Shown: piece after piece, positions 40,585 to 44,090 of the stretch
Numbering within the stretch: the stretch's first letter is position 1
How the letters are laid out: each line of letters opens with the position of its first letter
Assembly: GCA_947632115.1 (NCBI GenBank)
Contig: CANROB010000004.1
Location: 709 to 64,708 of the forward strand
Length of the DNA: 64,000 bases
Origin: an uncultured Bacilli bacterium
Lineage (GTDB): Bacteria > Bacillota_I > Bacilli_A > RF39 > UBA660
Reading direction: 5' to 3'
Made by a program: the position numbers and the translations under genes
Notes under the pieces: model-generated
The model's database searches: none
The model's input: only the letters and a program-made list of their open reading frames with translations
What the model was told of the DNA's origin: nothing

Positions 40585-40869
40585 ATGTTTTCATTTTTTA
40601 AAAAACAAACAACAATCCTTCCTGATGAATTTATGGATTTTCCACCTTATACAGGAAGAATAAAAAAAGGACCTATCATTCAAGAAACCCCTATTTATAA
40701 ACGTTACACCTATATTGTAAAGGGTGTAGGAGATTATCAACAACTTTTACTACAAAATGGATTTATGCAAAAAAGCAAAGTACGTTATGATAGAGGTTCT
40801 ATAGGGAACTATATTATTATAGAAAAAGTATGGAACGGATATAAACTTGCTTTCCATAAAAAGAAATAA
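40585..40869 (+). CDS. Hypothetical small protein (94 aa)
   Basis: AAGGAG SD; followed by the hairpin AAAGTAGAG-AATACC-CTCTACTTT plus a T-run (40868-40900). Confidence 0.5.
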   Translation: MFSFFKKQTTILPDEFMDFPPYTGRIKKGPIIQETPIYKRYTYIVKGVGDYQQLLLQNGFMQKSKVRYDRGSIGNYIIIEKVWNGYKLAFHKKK

Positions 40870-40884
40870 AGTAGAGAATACCCT

Positions 40885-41772
40885 CTACTTTATTTTTTTC
40901 CACAATACAATTGTTACTTTCTTTGGATTAGAAGAATTACAAGTATACATCACTAAAGAAGCACCTGTTTTTTCTACGTCTCTTCCATCTTTCGTTATAA
41001 GCCTTGTACCAGTATTAGTTCCCTCTACTTTTTCCATCACTTGATATTTTTCTAAGAAATATTTGCCCTTTTCATTCTTTACTTTTCGGTAAGCAATACT
41101 ACCTACCTTTTGTTTTTTTATAATATCGAATCCTTGTATAGAGTGATCTGCAATCATTGGGATATAATCATAATATAAAAAATAAGCAGCGCTATCTTTT
41201 TCATCTACTATTTTTTGTAGATCATCTACATAAAAATCTGCCTCATAAAGGGCAACAGAATAAAAATTTGAAAAATAAAGTCTACCAGCAGTCCCCATTT
41301 TTCCTTGATGAGATAAAATTTTTTGAGAAAGAGATTCTGTTTTTACTTTAGTTTGTGATTTGCTTTGTACTATTTTCTTTTCTACTTTTTTCTCTTCTTG
41401 CTTTTCAATAGTCAAAGTCACTTTCTTGGAAATAACGCCTAATTCACTAGGAAATAAAAGAACAATTGCATATTGACCTGGTTCTTGATAACTTCCCATT
41501 TGCTCTTCTTTATAGGTGTATTCTACTTTTTTAGGACTATCCATTTCGACGATAAAGTCAGAAATTTGATAGTTCTCTTTTTCTTTAATTGTAAGATTTC
41601 TTACCTCTATCTTAGGTGTTAGAATAGCAACTTCCTGAGATTTCAAAACTTCCTTTTCTTTCTTAGAAGAAGGTTTTTGCGGTTGAATAATCATGTTAAA
41701 AGATAATCCCAATTCTAGAAGTAAGAAAACGGATAAGATGATACTACCTAAATGTCTTTTCCACATAGTCAT
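40885..41772 (-). CDS. Membrane-anchored sortase-fold (C60-like) protein, putative
   Basis: N-terminal TM. The C-terminal domain aligns by eye with SrtA: ...IPMIADHSIQGF (His), ...GSIAYRKVKNEKGKYFLEKY..., ...ASLVMYTCNSS (TLxTC-like Cys). The conserved downstream Arg is not evident. Own TGTTAGAAT box at 41800-41808. Confidence 0.4.
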   Translation of the reverse strand: MTMWKRHLGSIILSVFLLLELGLSFNMIIQPQKPSSKKEKEVLKSQEVAILTPKIEVRNLTIKEKENYQISDFIVEMDSPKKVEYTYKEEQMGSYQEPGQYAIVLLFPSELGVISKKVTLTIEKQEEKKVEKKIVQSKSQTKVKTESLSQKILSHQGKMGTAGRLYFSNFYSVALYEADFYVDDLQKIVDEKDSAAYFLYYDYIPMIADHSIQGFDIIKKQKVGSIAYRKVKNEKGKYFLEKYQVMEKVEGTNTGTRLITKDGRDVEKTGASLVMYTCNSSNPKKVTIVLWKKIK

Positions 41773-41809
41773 CCCCCTTTTTTCTTGTTTTGGTCGGCTA
41801 TTCTAACAT

Positions 41810-41836
41810 AAAAAAAAGGGAAAGTCAAACTTTCTC
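41810..41836 (-). terminator. Putative terminator overlapping the RT stop codon
   Basis: Minus strand GAGAAAGT-TTG-ACTTTCCC (6-7 bp stem, 3-nt loop) followed by T8. Confidence 0.45.
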
Positions 41837-43012
41837 TTTTGTAAACTCATAATATTCATGAACCAAACTACGATACCCTGTACTTTTTAATAGTTGATAA
41901 GGGACTTTTGATTTATCCGTTTTACTGTATCTTCCTGTTTTTAAGTAACGTAATTGCTGTTGAAAATAACTATCAATTTCTTTTAGACCACTACTCACTG
42001 TAAGAACAGGAAAATACCAAATACTCCAGTTTAATTCTTTCCCTGGTCTTTCATAAAAAAACTTATAATTAAAAATATTGTTTAAAGCCTTCATAGCTTT
42101 CTCACTAGGAACATTTTTTCGTAGCATCCAACGTCTAAGAGCTCTTGCCTTTCTTCTAATTTTGGCTTTCATTTTTTGCTTAGAATGAGGCGAGAGATTA
42201 ATTCCACAAGAAGAATAAAAGAAGCCTAAAAATTCAAAAGGTTCTCCCTTATCAATAAAGTATTCTTTCTTTTCATTGATCTCAAGATTTAAATCCTTAA
42301 AGGTAGAGCGAATTTCTTCTACTTTTTTTAAAAGTTCTTGTTTCGTTGGTAAAAAAAGAAGGATATCATCTGCATATCTAGCATAGCAAACATCTATCAT
42401 TTTCCAATCTAATTCCGATAAATAAAGATTAGATAAAAAGCAAGAAATCGGTGTTCCTGCCATAACTCCTTTTTCTTCTTCTAGAATCTCTCCTTGATAA
42501 AGAACTCTTTTATCTTCTAATAACTTCTCAAAAAACAAATAACATTTCTCATCCACTTTTTCCTTTAACATTTGAAGTAATTTAGGAACAGAAATACTAT
42601 TAAAATAGTTATGAATATCTACTTTATATCCATATCCTAAAGTCGTATGAACTACCTTCCAAAAAGCCTGTTTTGGACCAATCTTTTGGCGAAAAGAATA
42701 ACAATTAGGAGCGAATAAAAAGTCATATTCTCCTAATAAATAGTGGATCATTTTTAAAATAATTGTCTCTTCTTTAGAAAAAGAATACACTACTCTTTTT
42801 TGTCCAGAAGCATTTTTATTAATTTTCTTTTTCATAGGAATCGAAAAAGAATAATCACCAGCTACAATCTTAGAAGAAATTGGCAAATATTTTTTTTCAT
42901 CAATGTATTGTTTTAATTCTTCATATTCCTTTTTCGTTAAATTTCTTTGTTCTTTGTAATTTAAAAAAGAATACCAAGCATTTTGATCTATTAAACTGTC
43001 TAAAACAGACAT
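41825..43012 (-). CDS. Free-standing reverse transcriptase (RNA-directed DNA polymerase), unclassified family
   Basis: RT motifs read in order: IPMKKKINKNASGQKRVVY (1/2), CYSFRQKIGPKQAF (2a), YKVDIHNYFNSI (A), GVMAGTPISCFLSNLYLSELD (B), YARYADDILLF (C; YADD codons 42365-42376), LEINEKKE (D), FEFLGFFY (E). There is an RT0-like N-terminal extension and a basic thumb-like C-terminus of about 125 aa. GGTGGTG SD at 43017-43023. Confidence 0.9.
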   Translation of the reverse strand: MSVLDSLIDQNAWYSFLNYKEQRNLTKKEYEELKQYIDEKKYLPISSKIVAGDYSFSIPMKKKINKNASGQKRVVYSFSKEETIILKMIHYLLGEYDFLFAPNCYSFRQKIGPKQAFWKVVHTTLGYGYKVDIHNYFNSISVPKLLQMLKEKVDEKCYLFFEKLLEDKRVLYQGEILEEEKGVMAGTPISCFLSNLYLSELDWKMIDVCYARYADDILLFLPTKQELLKKVEEIRSTFKDLNLEINEKKEYFIDKGEPFEFLGFFYSSCGINLSPHSKQKMKAKIRRKARALRRWMLRKNVPSEKAMKALNNIFNYKFFYERPGKELNWSIWYFPVLTVSSGLKEIDSYFQQQLRYLKTGRYSKTDKSKVPYQLLKSTGYRSLVHEYYEFTKEKV

Positions 43013-43152
43013 ATTTCACCACCAAGGAAGAGAATCAATTGAATCATTGATGAAATCAATGAATGACAAGGTTATATATATCCCAGTCACTTGCAAAACT
43101 ATTTTATAGGATATACTGAACCCGCTACAAGTAGTGTTTCCACATCTCTTCC
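43013..43152 (-). ncRNA. Candidate structured 5' leader / RT-associated non-coding RNA
   Basis: 146 nt separate the TGATATAAT box from the RT ATG. Complementary segments on the minus strand: GGAAGAGA (43145-43152) with TCTCTTCC (43026-43033), a closing stem; TATATCC (43109-43115) with GGATATA (43077-43083); TCATTGAT (43055-43062) with ATCAATGA (43044-43051), TTC loop. No ORF. Confidence 0.4.
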
Positions 43153-43158
43153 ACAGTC

Positions 43159-43167
43159 ATTATATCA
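43159..43167 (-). promoter_or_regulatory. Extended -10 promoter box (TGATATAAT) of the RT module
   Basis: Minus strand TTTTTTTGATATAAT, immediately after the upstream terminator. The same box is seen in front of cgs, the SDR gene, the 333-aa gene and the 24048 gene. Confidence 0.5.
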
Positions 43168-43194
43168 AAAAAAGAAGTAGTTTTATACTACTTC
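43167..43194 (-). terminator. Rho-independent terminator of the kinase-like gene
   Basis: Minus strand GAAGTAGT-ATAAA-ACTACTTC followed by T7; the stem overlaps the TAG stop (43188-43190). Confidence 0.7.
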
Positions 43195-44090
43195 CTTACT
43201 AATCTTTTGAAATATTTCTCTTCTCCAAAATTACCTTGTTCTTCTAAATAATATTTAGAAGCAATAACAAAAGCACTTTCCGTAAAATATTCTCCTGGCT
43301 CATGGAAAGATAAAATAGCGTTCATTTTAGAGATGATTTCTTCCTCTTCTAATCCAATAAGTTGAAGTATATCAGAAAGACGAATTCTCTTTCCCGTATT
43401 AGGATTTTCTTGTCCAATCATTCCTAAATCTATTTGAAATGTCATAGCAAAATAGAAAAATAACAAACTTAATTTATCTAATTCTGAGGTAAATAATTTT
43501 TGATTACGATATTTCTTATGCATAAAGATTTCTTGACTTCTAAAAGTTGCAGAAGTTTCAATAGCCATATGATTTCTTATCTGCATTCCATCATAATTAA
43601 CCAATTCAATATTTCCATTTTCGTCTATAAAAATATTATCTAAAGAACAAAGATCTGGAAATACATACCCTAACGTATTTGCCCTTCTAAGAATATTTTC
43701 TACCTTAGCCAAAATAGTTGCATATTTTTCTAAGTTTTCTCTATCCTCTTTTGTTTGTGTTGCTAAATAGGTAGAAAAAGGAACTCCCTTAGCCTTAGGC
43801 ATAATATATCCAGCAAAATTGTTTTCCTCATATACTCCACATTTAGGAGACATAATTTCAGGAAGACACCTCTTCTTTTCTGTATCCATGATTTTCGTCT
43901 CTAAATCTCCTCCACAAAATTCTGAAACAAAAAGGAATTGAGGAGAGAAAAGCTTTAAGATACTGCCGTCTTGTAGTTCAAAGACAGAACTTTTTTCACT
44001 TTCTTTTAATAACTCTTTTCCTTGGAAACGATAATCGGTTAAAGAAATTCTAGGTAATCCTCTCCCGCCATGCTTGATTGGATACTTCAT
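43188..44090 (-). CDS. Atypical protein-kinase-fold protein (Hanks/APH/CotS-like)
   Basis: Catalytic-loop-like YVFPDLCSLDNIFIDENGNIELVNYDG (compare HRDLKPxNhhhd...hkhxDFG), a candidate beta3 Lys in GSILKLF, and no Gly-rich loop. 300 aa. Confidence 0.5.
   Translation of the reverse strand: MKYPIKHGGRGLPRISLTDYRFQGKELLKESEKSSVFELQDGSILKLFSPQFLFVSEFCGGDLETKIMDTEKKRCLPEIMSPKCGVYEENNFAGYIMPKAKGVPFSTYLATQTKEDRENLEKYATILAKVENILRRANTLGYVFPDLCSLDNIFIDENGNIELVNYDGMQIRNHMAIETSATFRSQEIFMHKKYRNQKLFTSELDKLSLLFFYFAMTFQIDLGMIGQENPNTGKRIRLSDILQLIGLEEEEIISKMNAILSFHEPGEYFTESAFVIASKYYLEEQGNFGEEKYFKRLVRK

What the first reader, a model, noticed from the sequence alone, without database searches (positions are those of the whole stretch)
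41810..43194. Self-contained reverse-transcriptase module that is not a group II intron, retron or DGR
Seen in sequence: a 395-aa ORF carries every RT palm motif in order, including YARYADDILLF (YADD codons at 42365-42376). It is insulated as a single-gene unit. An upstream terminator (43167-43194) is fused to a TGATATAAT box (43159-43167); next come a 146-nt leader, the RT, and a stop-overlapping hairpin plus T8 (41810-41836). The flanking genes, a kinase-like protein and a sortase-fold protein, each have their own promoter boxes. Established knowledge: group II intron RTs sit inside about 2 kb of intron RNA and carry X/En domains. Retron RTs have a VTG motif after motif D. DGR RTs have [ILV]GxxxSQ in motif B and an adjacent TR/VR pair. 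Here only 146 nt lie upstream and 52 nt downstream, the post-motif-D element is FLGF rather than VTG, and motif B reads AGTPISC, ending in neither SP nor SQ. No TR/VR repeat is visible in the window. Inference: this is a free-standing RT of the kind that, in characterised cases (DRT/UG/Abi, G2L), acts in phage defence or DNA repair, here in a compact form with a candidate RNA partner. It is the most likely place in this window for an undescribed system.
Basis: partly seen in the sequence, partly recalled or inferred. Interest (0 to 1): 0.8.

Follow-up and report, generated by a model that had tools for sequence, protein, structure and literature searches.

The report
UG26 reverse transcriptase with RT-5 RNA
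This is a real stand-alone bacterial reverse transcriptase preceded by its own folded non-coding RNA; both parts are already catalogued (RT group UG26, Rfam motif RT-5), nobody has shown what they do, and a small partner protein lies nearby.

Summary
A 395-aa RT with an intact YADD lies at 41825-43012 (-). It sits behind a terminator, a TGATATAAT box and a 146-nt leader.

It is not an undescribed kind. The protein matches the PADLOC profile RT_UG26 end to end (E 1e-135). UG26 is a Class 2 UG/Abi group whose defence role was left 'inconclusive' in 2022. The leader is Rfam RT-5 RNA (57 bits, threshold 45.7), one of 19 RT-linked motifs of unknown function from 2017.

I found this RNA directly 5' of the RT in 79 of 80 related genomes from three phyla. 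Covariation is strong and supports a closing stem, four helices and a pseudoknot.

The module is not fully self-contained:
- 61 of 81 loci carry a ~170-aa COG2852-like gene upstream.
- The window's clade lacks that gene. It keeps a different small protein (40585-40869, +). In 7 of 7 other contexts examined, that protein sits next to such an RT.

The most likely mechanism is inferred from DRT2, DRT9 and DRT10: the RT binds the RNA and copies a short stretch of it into DNA. This is untested. A telomerase-like repeat signature was not significant, and the neighbourhoods show no defence-island signal.

Verdict: a new member of a known but uncharacterised kind.

The parts
43171..43197 (-). Intrinsic terminator of the preceding (kinase-like) gene. 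It insulates the RT unit from upstream transcription.
   Evidence: 11-bp stem, 3 G-C pairs, T-run. Sequence.
43159..43167 (-). Extended -10 promoter box TGATATAAT. The predicted transcript start is at or next to the first base of helix P1.
   Evidence: Sequence. The same box lies at the same spacing from P1 in L001, L002, L006, L008 and L055. Function is inferred.
43026..43152 (-). Structured ncRNA, 127 nt. The Rfam RT-5 core spans 43031-43136. This work adds closing stem P1 and hairpin P2.
   Evidence: RF03026, 57.4 bits against a threshold of 45.7, E 5e-10, model positions 1-104 of 104; own model R1, 103.6 bits, E 1.9e-18; the MFE fold reproduces P1, P2, P4, P5 and P6 (-36.4 kcal/mol, z -2.9); covariation.
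43145..43152 (-). P1 5' strand (GGAAGAGA, all purine). It pairs with 43026-43033 (UCUCUUCC).
   Evidence: 7 of 10 P1 pairs change on both sides across relatives.
43134..43143 (-). P2 hairpin (GUG-GAAA-CAC).
43125..43132 (-). Pseudoknot 5' strand ACUUGUAG. It pairs with the P5 loop UUGCAAGU at 43089-43096.
   Evidence: helix 3: 96% of cells paired, 5 of 7 pairs change on both sides. The Rfam consensus structure line shows this stretch as unpaired.
43066..43124 (-). Long stem P4 capped by hairpin P5. The 8-nt P5 loop forms the pseudoknot. The invariant GU at 43066-43067 follows.
   Evidence: helices 4-6: 94-96% paired; invariant positions.
43044..43062 (-). P6 hairpin (UCAUUGAU-UUC-AUCAAUGA).
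   Evidence: All 7 pairs change on both sides.
43034..43043 (-). J6/1, a 10-nt single strand between P6 and P1 (UUCAAUUGAU). It is the candidate template segment. UGAUUC is repeated with period 9 (43041-43046 and 43032-43037).
   Evidence: The junction is 10 nt in nearly all relatives and starts UCAAA. The template role is inferred. The repeat is not significant family-wide.
43016..43023 (-). Shine-Dalgarno-like GGUGGUGA, 3 nt before the ATG.
   Evidence: Sequence.
41825..43012 (-). UG26 reverse transcriptase, 395 aa, YADD active site. It has a compact fingers-palm-thumb fold plus a C-terminal helical region and no extra domain.
41810..41836 (-). Weak terminator-like hairpin overlapping the stop codon, then T8.
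   Evidence: Not called.
40585..40869 (+). Small protein 'c2', 94 aa. It is the candidate protein partner and is convergent with the RT. The 295-aa gene at 40885-41772 separates the two.
   Evidence: near the RT in 8 Firmicutes loci; 7 of 7 other contexts have an adjacent RT of about 400 aa, and all 6 with DNA carry the RNA; confident model with no known fold.

Best explanation
The locus encodes a Class 2 UG/Abi reverse transcriptase of group UG26 together with its dedicated non-coding RNA, the Rfam RT-5 motif.

Shown:
- The RT has all catalytic motifs and a compact fold like a group II intron RT or DRT9, with no extra domain.
- The 127-nt RNA starts about 7 nt after an extended -10 box and ends 13 nt before the RT start codon.
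- The RNA folds into a polypurine/polypyrimidine closing stem (P1) around hairpin P2, a long stem P4-P5 whose loop forms a pseudoknot, and hairpin P6, followed by a 10-nt single strand.
- The RNA accompanies the RT in 79 of 80 related genomes.

Inferred by analogy with the characterised Class 2 systems DRT2, DRT9 and DRT10:
- The RT binds this RNA.
- The RT copies a short internal segment into DNA, probably repeatedly. The best candidate is the single strand between P6 and P1, with P6 acting as the template boundary.
- The DNA product, or its loss on infection, acts through a small partner protein to stop phage or another invader. The partner here is c2 at 40585-40869. In most relatives it is the COG2852-like protein.
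For: Identity:
- RT_UG26 at E 1.2e-135, 450 bits, covering profile positions 1-397 of 398. The next best profile is UG27 at 110 bits.
- All 25 diverse relatives hit only RT_UG26 at E<=1e-60.
- UG26 is treated under Class 2 in Mestre 2022.

RNA:
- RF03026 scores above threshold in the window and in 14 of 14 sampled relatives.
- My own model finds exactly one copy just 5' of the RT in 79 of 80 loci, in the window and in 6 of 6 further loci.
- 86% of cells are paired, against 44-49% in slid controls. 39 of 47 pairs change on both sides, with 0 of 500 shuffles as high.

Fold: AF2 pLDDT 91.9. Foldseek TM is 0.77 to the GsI-IIC RT, 0.71 to G2L4 and 0.67 to DRT9.

Mechanistic precedent: DRT2, DRT9 and DRT10 all copy an upstream ncRNA. 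In the 137-nt DRT10 RNA the template loop follows a boundary stem-loop, the same layout as here.

Partners: c1 is present in 61 of 81 loci and matches PADLOC RTasCOG2852. c2 lies next to an RT in 7 of 7 contexts.
Against: - No experiment exists for UG26. Mestre 2022 found the defence prediction inconclusive.
- The 119 immediate neighbours in the 60+ loci sampled are diverse housekeeping genes. No Pfam family occurs more than 3 times, and few match PADLOC.
- No UG26 member is found in the phage or plasmid collections.
- Local gene order is conserved within lineages. That is unusual for defence genes.
- The DRT10-type A-B-A' repeat in the junction is no longer than in shuffled sequence: mean 3.90 nt against 3.85 nt, with 5% of sequences at p<=0.05.
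- In the window, the partner c2 is separated from the RT by another gene and lacks the N-terminal segment seen in most c2 proteins.
Confidence: 0.6

Rival explanations
1. Same RT-RNA particle, but with a non-defence cellular role, for example DNA repair as shown for the group II-like RT G2L4, or some other housekeeping use of a templated DNA.
For: - Neighbourhoods are housekeeping and show no defence-island signal.
- The family is absent from phage and plasmid collections.
- Gene order is conserved within lineages and the RT is single-copy.
- The family is widespread in gut and rumen Bacteroidota and Bacillota, in at least 551 species-level genomes.
- The predicted fold is close to G2L4, TM 0.71.
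Against: - Every characterised UG/Abi RT so far acts in phage defence.
- G2L4 has no dedicated ncRNA, and its sequence match is much weaker than that of the intron RTs.
- RT identity of 43-46% between different phyla, with a near-identical RNA, suggests horizontal spread.
Confidence: 0.2
2. The RT-5 element is only a cis-acting 5' leader that controls RT expression or stability, for example by RT autoregulation. It is not a template. The RT acts on other nucleic acids or makes untemplated DNA as AbiK does.
For: - The RNA lies in the RT 5' UTR, 13 nt from the start codon.
- In most lineages P1 is followed by a U-run that could act as a terminator or attenuator.
- No significant template-repeat signature was found.
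Against: - The structure is unusually elaborate (five helices plus a pseudoknot) and its sequence is conserved across phyla.
- In L041 the RNA lies 3 kb from the RT with two genes between them, which does not fit a leader.
- The window clade lacks the U-run.
- Class 2 relatives all use their upstream RNA as a template.
Confidence: 0.1
3. A retron-like element: the RNA is an msr/msd analogue, P1 plays the role of the a1/a2 repeats, and the RT makes a branched RNA-DNA hybrid. Weinberg et al. speculated this for the RT motifs in general.
For: - The layout is ncRNA upstream of the RT on the same strand, closed by terminal inverted repeats.
- The speculation appears in PMC5737381.
Against: - Retron RT profiles score far below their thresholds. 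NF038233 gives 69 bits against a cutoff of 235, and PADLOC retron RT models give at most 59 bits against 450 for UG26.
- There is no VTG motif.
- The partner proteins are not retron effectors listed in PADLOC.
Confidence: 0.07
4. A decayed group II intron whose RT survived.
For: - The best sequence and fold matches among solved structures are group II intron RTs.
- Some database records call relatives 'group II intron reverse transcriptase domain-containing protein'.
Against: - TIGR04416 scores 107 bits against a cutoff of 300.
- No maturase or endonuclease domain is detected.
- No intron RNA model hits at E<=10.
- Only 146 nt lie upstream and 52 nt downstream.
- The flanking RNA is a different, conserved 127-nt structure present in about 80 genomes.
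Confidence: 0.01

Closest known systems
UG26 (Class 2 UG/Abi reverse transcriptases; Mestre et al. 2022, NAR, PMC9226505)
   Same: Full-length, top-scoring match to the UG26 profile. About 400 aa with the RT domain only. In relatives there is an occasional to frequent upstream COG2852-like gene (the paper's cluster 1531).
   Different: - The paper had 35 members and found the partner in 9 of them. Here at least 551 genome loci exist and the partner is in 61 of 81.
- No ncRNA was reported for UG26 there.
- The window's clade lacks the COG2852-like gene and has the unlisted c2 protein instead.
RT-5 RNA motif (Rfam RF03026; Weinberg et al. 2017, NAR, PMC5737381)
   Same: The leader matches the whole 104-position model above the gathering score. 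It lies next to an RT gene, as the motif was defined.
   Different: - As shown by cmscan, the Rfam model starts inside P2 and ends before P1.
- The relatives support three further elements: a closing stem P1, hairpin P2 and a pseudoknot.
- The publication assigns no RT family or function.
DRT10 (UG17 RT + 137-nt ncRNA + SLATT; Tang et al. 2025 preprint, 10.1101/2025.10.16.682844)
   Same: - A Class 2 RT with an upstream ncRNA of similar size, built as a closing stem decorated with hairpins.
- A single-stranded loop follows the last hairpin near the 3' end.
- The UG17 profile hits this RT over nearly its full length (102 bits).
   Different: - There is no SLATT gene.
- It is a different RT group (450 bits for UG26 against 102 for UG17).
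- The A-B-A' template repeat is not significant across the family.
- Protein priming and tandem-repeat DNA are untested here.
DRT9 (UG28) and DRT2 (UG2)
   Same: Class 2 RTs with a 5' ncRNA that is copied repeatedly. The DRT9 structure is among the best fold matches (TM 0.62-0.67).
   Different: - There is no conserved poly-U template loop as described for DRT9.
- There is no conserved stop-free frame in the concatenated RNA as needed for the DRT2 Neo gene: 46 of 76 cores have none (a crude test).
Group II intron RTs (GsI-IIC) and G2L4
   Same: The closest solved folds (TM 0.77 and 0.71), with the same fingers-palm-thumb layout.
   Different: There is no intron RNA, no maturase or endonuclease domains, and the score is below the family threshold. 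G2L4 has no dedicated RNA.

Membership tests
UG26 (UG/Abi Class 2) | RT matches the group profile over its full length and better than any other RT group | tested here: met
   RT_UG26 at 450 bits, E 1.2e-135, profile positions 1-397 of 398. The next best is UG27 at 110 bits; 25 of 25 relatives hit only UG26 at E<=1e-60.
UG26 (UG/Abi Class 2) | No additional known domain fused to the RT (the Class 2 property) | tested here: met
   only RVT_1 passes; a compact, single RT-like fold of 395 aa.
UG26 (UG/Abi Class 2) | Co-location with the COG2852-like protein (cluster 1531). This is optional: 9 of 35 members in the defining paper. | tested here: not met
   the c1 profile finds no ORF of 50 aa or more anywhere in the 64-kb window, although it is present in 61 of 81 loci. 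This is not a defining feature, so membership stands.
UG26 (UG/Abi Class 2) | Placement inside the UG26 clade in an RT phylogeny | not tested
   No reference RT tree or reference sequences of the other groups were at hand. Only profile scores were used.
RT-5 RNA (RF03026) | Score at or above the curated gathering threshold over the whole model | tested here: met
   57.4 bits against 45.7, model positions 1-104 of 104.
RT-5 RNA (RF03026) | Located next to a reverse transcriptase gene | tested here: met
   It ends 13 nt before the RT start codon. The same arrangement holds in 14 of 14 relatives at the Rfam threshold.
Group II intron | RT/maturase passes the family profile and carries X/maturase with or without En domains | tested here: not met
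   TIGR04416 at 107 bits against a cutoff of 300; no GIIM or HNH domain.
Group II intron | Intron RNA domains I-VI flank the ORF | tested here: not met
   no intron family at E<=10 in 41500-43500 on either strand. The flanks are only 146 nt and 52 nt.
Retron | Retron-type RT (family profiles, VTG motif) | tested here: not met
   NF038233 at 69 bits against a cutoff of 235; retron RT models at 59 bits or less. The protein reads FLGF and has no VTG.
Retron | msr/msd RNA giving branched msDNA | not testable with these tools
   The RNA has terminal inverted repeats (P1), but the product can only be determined experimentally.
DGR | TR/VR repeat pair near the RT | tested here: not met
   only 30-37-nt repeats at about 70% identity within 13 kb.
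DRT10 (UG17) | UG17 RT with an adjacent SLATT effector | tested here: not met
   the UG17 profile scores 102 bits against 450 for UG26. No SLATT family appears among the neighbours.
DRT10 (UG17) | A-B-A' template repeat in the loop after the boundary hairpin, giving tandem-repeat cDNA | tested here: inconclusive
   the window has UGAUUC twice at period 9 (p 0.11). Family-wide the repeats equal the shuffled expectation (3.90 nt against 3.85 nt). Homology of 2-4 nt suffices in DRT10, so the test has low power.

The most novel reading that the evidence does not exclude
UG26 RT, RT-5 RNA and a small protein (c1 or c2) form a distinct three-part system, abundant in gut and rumen Bacteroidota and Bacillota. 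Its DNA product, priming mode or biological role may differ from DRT2, DRT9 and DRT10. One possibility is a chromosomally stable, non-island function. Another is a new telomerase-like repeat synthesis. If the window's J6/1 repeat is read with period 9, the predicted unit is (GAATCAATT)n.
Probability: 0.35. Interest if true: 0.75.

Novelty: new member of a known kind. Interest (0 to 1): 0.5.

Why it matters
UG26 is one of 16 UG/Abi groups whose role was left open in 2022. Each Class 2 group that has since been studied showed a new way of making DNA: DRT2 builds a gene de novo, DRT9 makes poly-dA, and DRT10 makes telomerase-like repeats.

This analysis adds four things:
- It links UG26 to a specific, already curated RNA (RT-5).
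- It extends that RNA's structure.
- It shows the family is far larger than the 35 known members and is concentrated in animal gut bacteria.
- It identifies a second dedicated partner protein.

Together these give a compact, well-defined three-part construct (RNA, RT, small protein) that can be tested directly. If the system is not defensive, it would be the first UG/Abi RT with another role.

Tried and rejected
1. DRT10/telomerase-type A-B-A' repeat in the junction after P6. Longest direct repeats (period 5-14) in 63 distinct sequences average 3.90 nt, against 3.85 nt in dinucleotide shuffles. There is no family-wide support. A few low-GC Firmicutes stand out, including the window (6 nt, period 9) and L032 (9 nt, period 12).
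2. DRT2-type endless ORF in a concatenated RNA. 46 of 76 cores have no stop-free frame on either strand. This is rejected as a conserved feature, although the test is crude because the template ends are unknown.
3. Homology between the two partner families c1 and c2. hhalign gives probability 0.2%. They share only an N-terminal MGLFD-like motif and a low-complexity linker.
4. Function of c2 from its fold. The model is confident (pLDDT 90), but the best PDB match has E 0.23 and TM about 0.33. There is no Pfam, PADLOC or PDB sequence hit.
5. Function of c1. There is no Pfam or PDB hit, only PADLOC RTasCOG2852 at E 4e-6, and no invariant acidic residue.
6. Defence-island context. It is not seen.
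7. Carriage on mobile elements. No UG26 member is found in the phage or plasmid collections.
8. DGR, group II intron and retron readings. All are rejected.
9. Literature on 'RT-5 motif' or RF03026 beyond the 2017 paper. None is in the library. The only papers that mention UG26 as an RT group are Mestre 2022 and a cold-seep virus survey.
10. Direct comparison of this RNA with the DRT9 and DRT10 RNAs.
Full report
**Observation**

The window carries a 395-aa ORF at 41825..43012 on the minus strand. Pfam finds only RVT_1 (aa 64-264, E 2.1e-20). The YADD codons are at 42376-42365. Motif B reads GVMAGTPISC, and FEFLGF follows motif D.

Upstream, the preceding gene ends in an 11-bp terminator hairpin with a T-run (43197-43171). 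This is followed directly by TGATATAAT (43167-43159) and a 146-nt leader. Downstream, a weak hairpin overlaps the stop codon and is followed by T8 (-7.2 kcal/mol, z -1.9).

**What the protein is**

Against PADLOC the protein matches RT_UG26 from end to end (450 bits, E 1.2e-135, profile positions 1-397 of 398). The next profiles are far behind: UG27 at 110 bits, UG4 at 109 and UG17 at 102.

NCBIfam family models all fall well below their cut-offs:
- group II intron RT/maturase: 107 bits against 300;
- retron St85: 69 against 235;
- Drt2: 66 against 390.

UG26 is one of the 'unknown groups' of prokaryotic RTs. Mestre et al. 2022 (PMC9226505) treat it among Class 2 UG/Abi RTs, which have no extra domain. 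They list 35 members and note a COG2852/YcjD-like neighbour in 9 of them. They class its defence prediction as inconclusive and describe no ncRNA for it. In the searchable library only that paper and a virus survey mention UG26 as an RT group.

An AlphaFold model built on 25 relatives is confident (pLDDT 91.9). It most resembles the group II intron RT GsI-IIC (TM 0.77), G2L4 (0.71) and DRT9 (0.62-0.67). The profile search of PDB sequences gives the same ranking.

**What the leader is**

A scan of 41500-43500 against Rfam finds one significant match: RF03026, RT-5 RNA, at 43031-43136 (-). It scores 57.4 bits against a gathering score of 45.7 and covers the whole model. No intron family appears even at E<=10.

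RT-1 to RT-19 are motifs that Weinberg et al. 2017 (PMC5737381) found near RT genes. The authors gave them no function and speculated that some act in retrons.

**Relatives**

The RT family is large:
- The protein search returns more than 2000 clusters at 90% identity with E<=1e-10. The best 120 are all 376-456 aa and at E<1e-98.
I kept 80 of them.
- By record title these are about 46 Bacteroidota, 32 Bacillota, one Bifidobacteriaceae and one unclassified. Nearly all are gut or rumen MAGs.
- All 25 relatives I aligned (43-71% identity) hit only RT_UG26 at E<=1e-60.

**The RNA across relatives**

The roughly 140 nt upstream of the RT are visibly alike from Bacilli to Bacteroidales. On a plain MAFFT alignment of 25 loci, RNAalifold predicts 24 pairs, of which 21 have compensatory changes.

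I then wrote out a fuller structure:
- a closing stem P1;
- hairpin P2;
- a long stem P4 capped by hairpin P5;
- a pseudoknot between the 8-nt P5 loop (UUGCAAGU) and the strand just 5' of P4 (ACUUGUAG);
- hairpin P6;
- a single-stranded junction before P1 closes.

On the same alignment:
- 86.3% of cells pair, against 44-49% when the 3' partners are slid by 1-3 columns.
- 39 of 47 pairs change on both sides, with 0 of 500 shuffles as high.
- The pseudoknot helix is 96% paired, and 5 of its 7 pairs covary.

A covariance model built from this structure (R1) finds exactly one copy in 79 of 80 loci and in the window. The copy is always on the RT strand and almost always ends within about 10-30 nt of the start codon. 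Rfam's own RT-5 model passes its threshold at the same place in 14 of 14 sampled loci from all three phyla.

There are two exceptions. L010 has no RNA. In L041 the RNA lies 3 kb upstream of the RT.

The window's RNA folds on its own into the same helices (-36.4 kcal/mol, z -2.9). In window coordinates:

| Element | Coordinates |
|---|---|
| P1 | 43152-43145 with 43033-43026 |
| P2 | 43143-43134 |
| Pseudoknot | 43132-43125 with 43096-43089 |
| P4-P5 | 43124-43066 |
| P6 | 43062-43044 |
| Junction J6/1 | 43043-43034 |

In low-GC Firmicutes a TATAAT box sits 6-10 nt before P1, so the transcript probably begins at P1. RT-5 is therefore the UG26 RNA. I did not find this link stated in either source paper.

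**Is the module self-contained?**

Clustering of flanking ORFs shows a protein of about 170 aa directly upstream on the same strand. It is about 150-165 nt from the RT, and the RNA fills that gap. A profile of this protein ('c1') finds it in 61 of 81 loci. It matches PADLOC RTasCOG2852 over its full length (E 4e-6). It has no Pfam or PDB sequence hit and no invariant acidic residue.

The window and its closest relatives (L001 and L002, 66-71% RT identity) lack c1 anywhere in the available sequence.

Eight Firmicutes loci, including these three, instead carry a different small protein, 'c2'. In the window it is at 40585..40869 (+), 94 aa, convergent with the RT. The c2 family has 146 clusters and no Pfam domain. 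I examined seven further genomic contexts of c2 homologues:
- All seven have an adjacent RVT_1 gene of about 400-456 aa.
- Six are convergent with overlapping 3' ends, and one is tandem upstream.
- All six for which DNA was available carry the RNA next to the RT.

c2 is therefore a dedicated alternative partner. Its model is confident (pLDDT 90) but matches no solved fold. c1 and c2 are not detectably homologous.

In the window, c2 is separated from the RT by the 295-aa gene at 40885-41772. In L001 and L002 two genes intervene.

Apart from c1 and c2, the neighbours are unrelated housekeeping genes. The 119 neighbours fall into 162 Pfam families, none seen more than three times. Only a handful hit PADLOC models. 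No UG26 member occurs in the phage or plasmid collections.

**How it most likely works**

Established so far: there is an intact RT, a dedicated and elaborately folded RNA transcribed just ahead of it, and a small partner protein.

The rest is inferred. All characterised Class 2 UG/Abi systems use their upstream ncRNA as a template for repeated reverse transcription:
- DRT2: rolling-circle copying;
- DRT9: poly-dA from a U-tract;
- DRT10: protein-primed tandem repeats from an A-B-A' segment that follows a boundary stem-loop in a 137-nt RNA (preprint 10.1101/2025.10.16.682844).

The UG26 RNA has the same general plan. It has a closing stem decorated with hairpins, and a 10-nt single strand right after the last hairpin. 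I therefore propose that the RT binds RT-5 and copies J6/1, with P6 as the template boundary. The small protein would act as effector or regulator.

I tested two specific versions of this idea:
- The A-B-A' repeat. The window has UGAUUC twice at period 9, and some Firmicutes have 6-9-nt repeats. Over 63 distinct sequences, however, the repeats are no longer than in shuffled controls. This is inconclusive, because 2-4 nt suffice in DRT10.
- A DRT2-like endless reading frame. This is not conserved.

Whether the biological role is defence is open. Family precedent says yes. The housekeeping neighbourhoods, the lineage-level synteny and the absence from mobile elements say perhaps not.

**Comparison and novelty**

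Membership in UG26 and in RT-5 was tested and met. Membership in the group II intron, retron, DGR and DRT10 families was tested and not met.

The finding is a new member of a known, functionally uncharacterised kind, not a new kind. Four results here go beyond the cited sources:
- the explicit UG26-RT-5 pairing;
- the extended RNA structure with P1, P2 and a pseudoknot;
- the much larger family size and its gut and rumen distribution;
- the c2 partner.

Interest is moderate (0.5). A specialist would not be surprised by the class. However, this is a compact and very well-defined target in a family where each studied group has revealed a new mode of DNA synthesis.

Noticed in passing
window 40585-40869 (+); L006, L008, L015, L055, L077, L081-L086: Small protein family 'c2' (94-171 aa, 146 clusters, no Pfam domain, confident model with no PDB fold match). 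It is always adjacent to a UG26 RT plus RT-5 RNA, usually convergent with overlapping 3' ends. The 2022 UG/Abi survey text that I read does not mention it as a UG26 partner.
   Followed up: yes
A5 and A7 alignments (c1: L003 4296-4829 and others; c2: P0121-P0239): The two unrelated partner families both begin with MG(L/F)(F/L)(D/K)xL, followed by a low-complexity linker of variable length. The window's c2 and its nearest relatives lack this N-terminal part. The c1 alignment has no invariant acidic residue, so nuclease activity is doubtful.
   Followed up: partly
window 43145-43152 with 43026-43033; all loci in A3: Helix P1 of the RNA is all-purine on the 5' strand and all-pyrimidine on the 3' strand in every lineage. 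Most lineages have a U-run directly after P1, which could be a terminator or a triplex strand. The window clade has none.
   Followed up: no
window 43041-43049 (-): The RNA reads CAAUGAUUC. This is exactly the reverse complement of the 9-nt cDNA repeat GAATCATTG reported for E. coli Eco3 DRT10, and it lies at the equivalent place, at the last hairpin and following loop. It may be chance in AT-rich sequence.
   Followed up: no
L010 1-300; L041 1791-1971 and 5001-6194: There are two exceptions to the RNA-RT adjacency. L010 has a UG26 RT with no RNA upstream. L041 has c1 plus the RNA 3 kb upstream of the RT with two genes in between; the same two gene families lie downstream of the RT in L078.
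   Followed up: partly
window 43188-44090 (-) and 40885-41772 (-); L001, L002: Genes come and go around the RT within the window's clade. The weakly kinase-like gene is present in the window and L002 but not in L001. A 237-aa gene lies between the RT and the 295-aa gene in L001 and L002 but not in the window. The 'sortase-fold' label could not be confirmed by sequence searches.
   Followed up: partly
window 40864-40895: A 14-bp hairpin with T-runs lies between the convergent c2 gene and the 295-aa gene. It is probably a bidirectional terminator.
   Followed up: no
L069 7342-7587; L063 9177-9262: A T-box leader and a c-di-GMP-I riboswitch lie a few kb from the RT in two relatives. They are ordinary housekeeping regulatory RNAs, consistent with the non-island neighbourhoods.
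   Followed up: no
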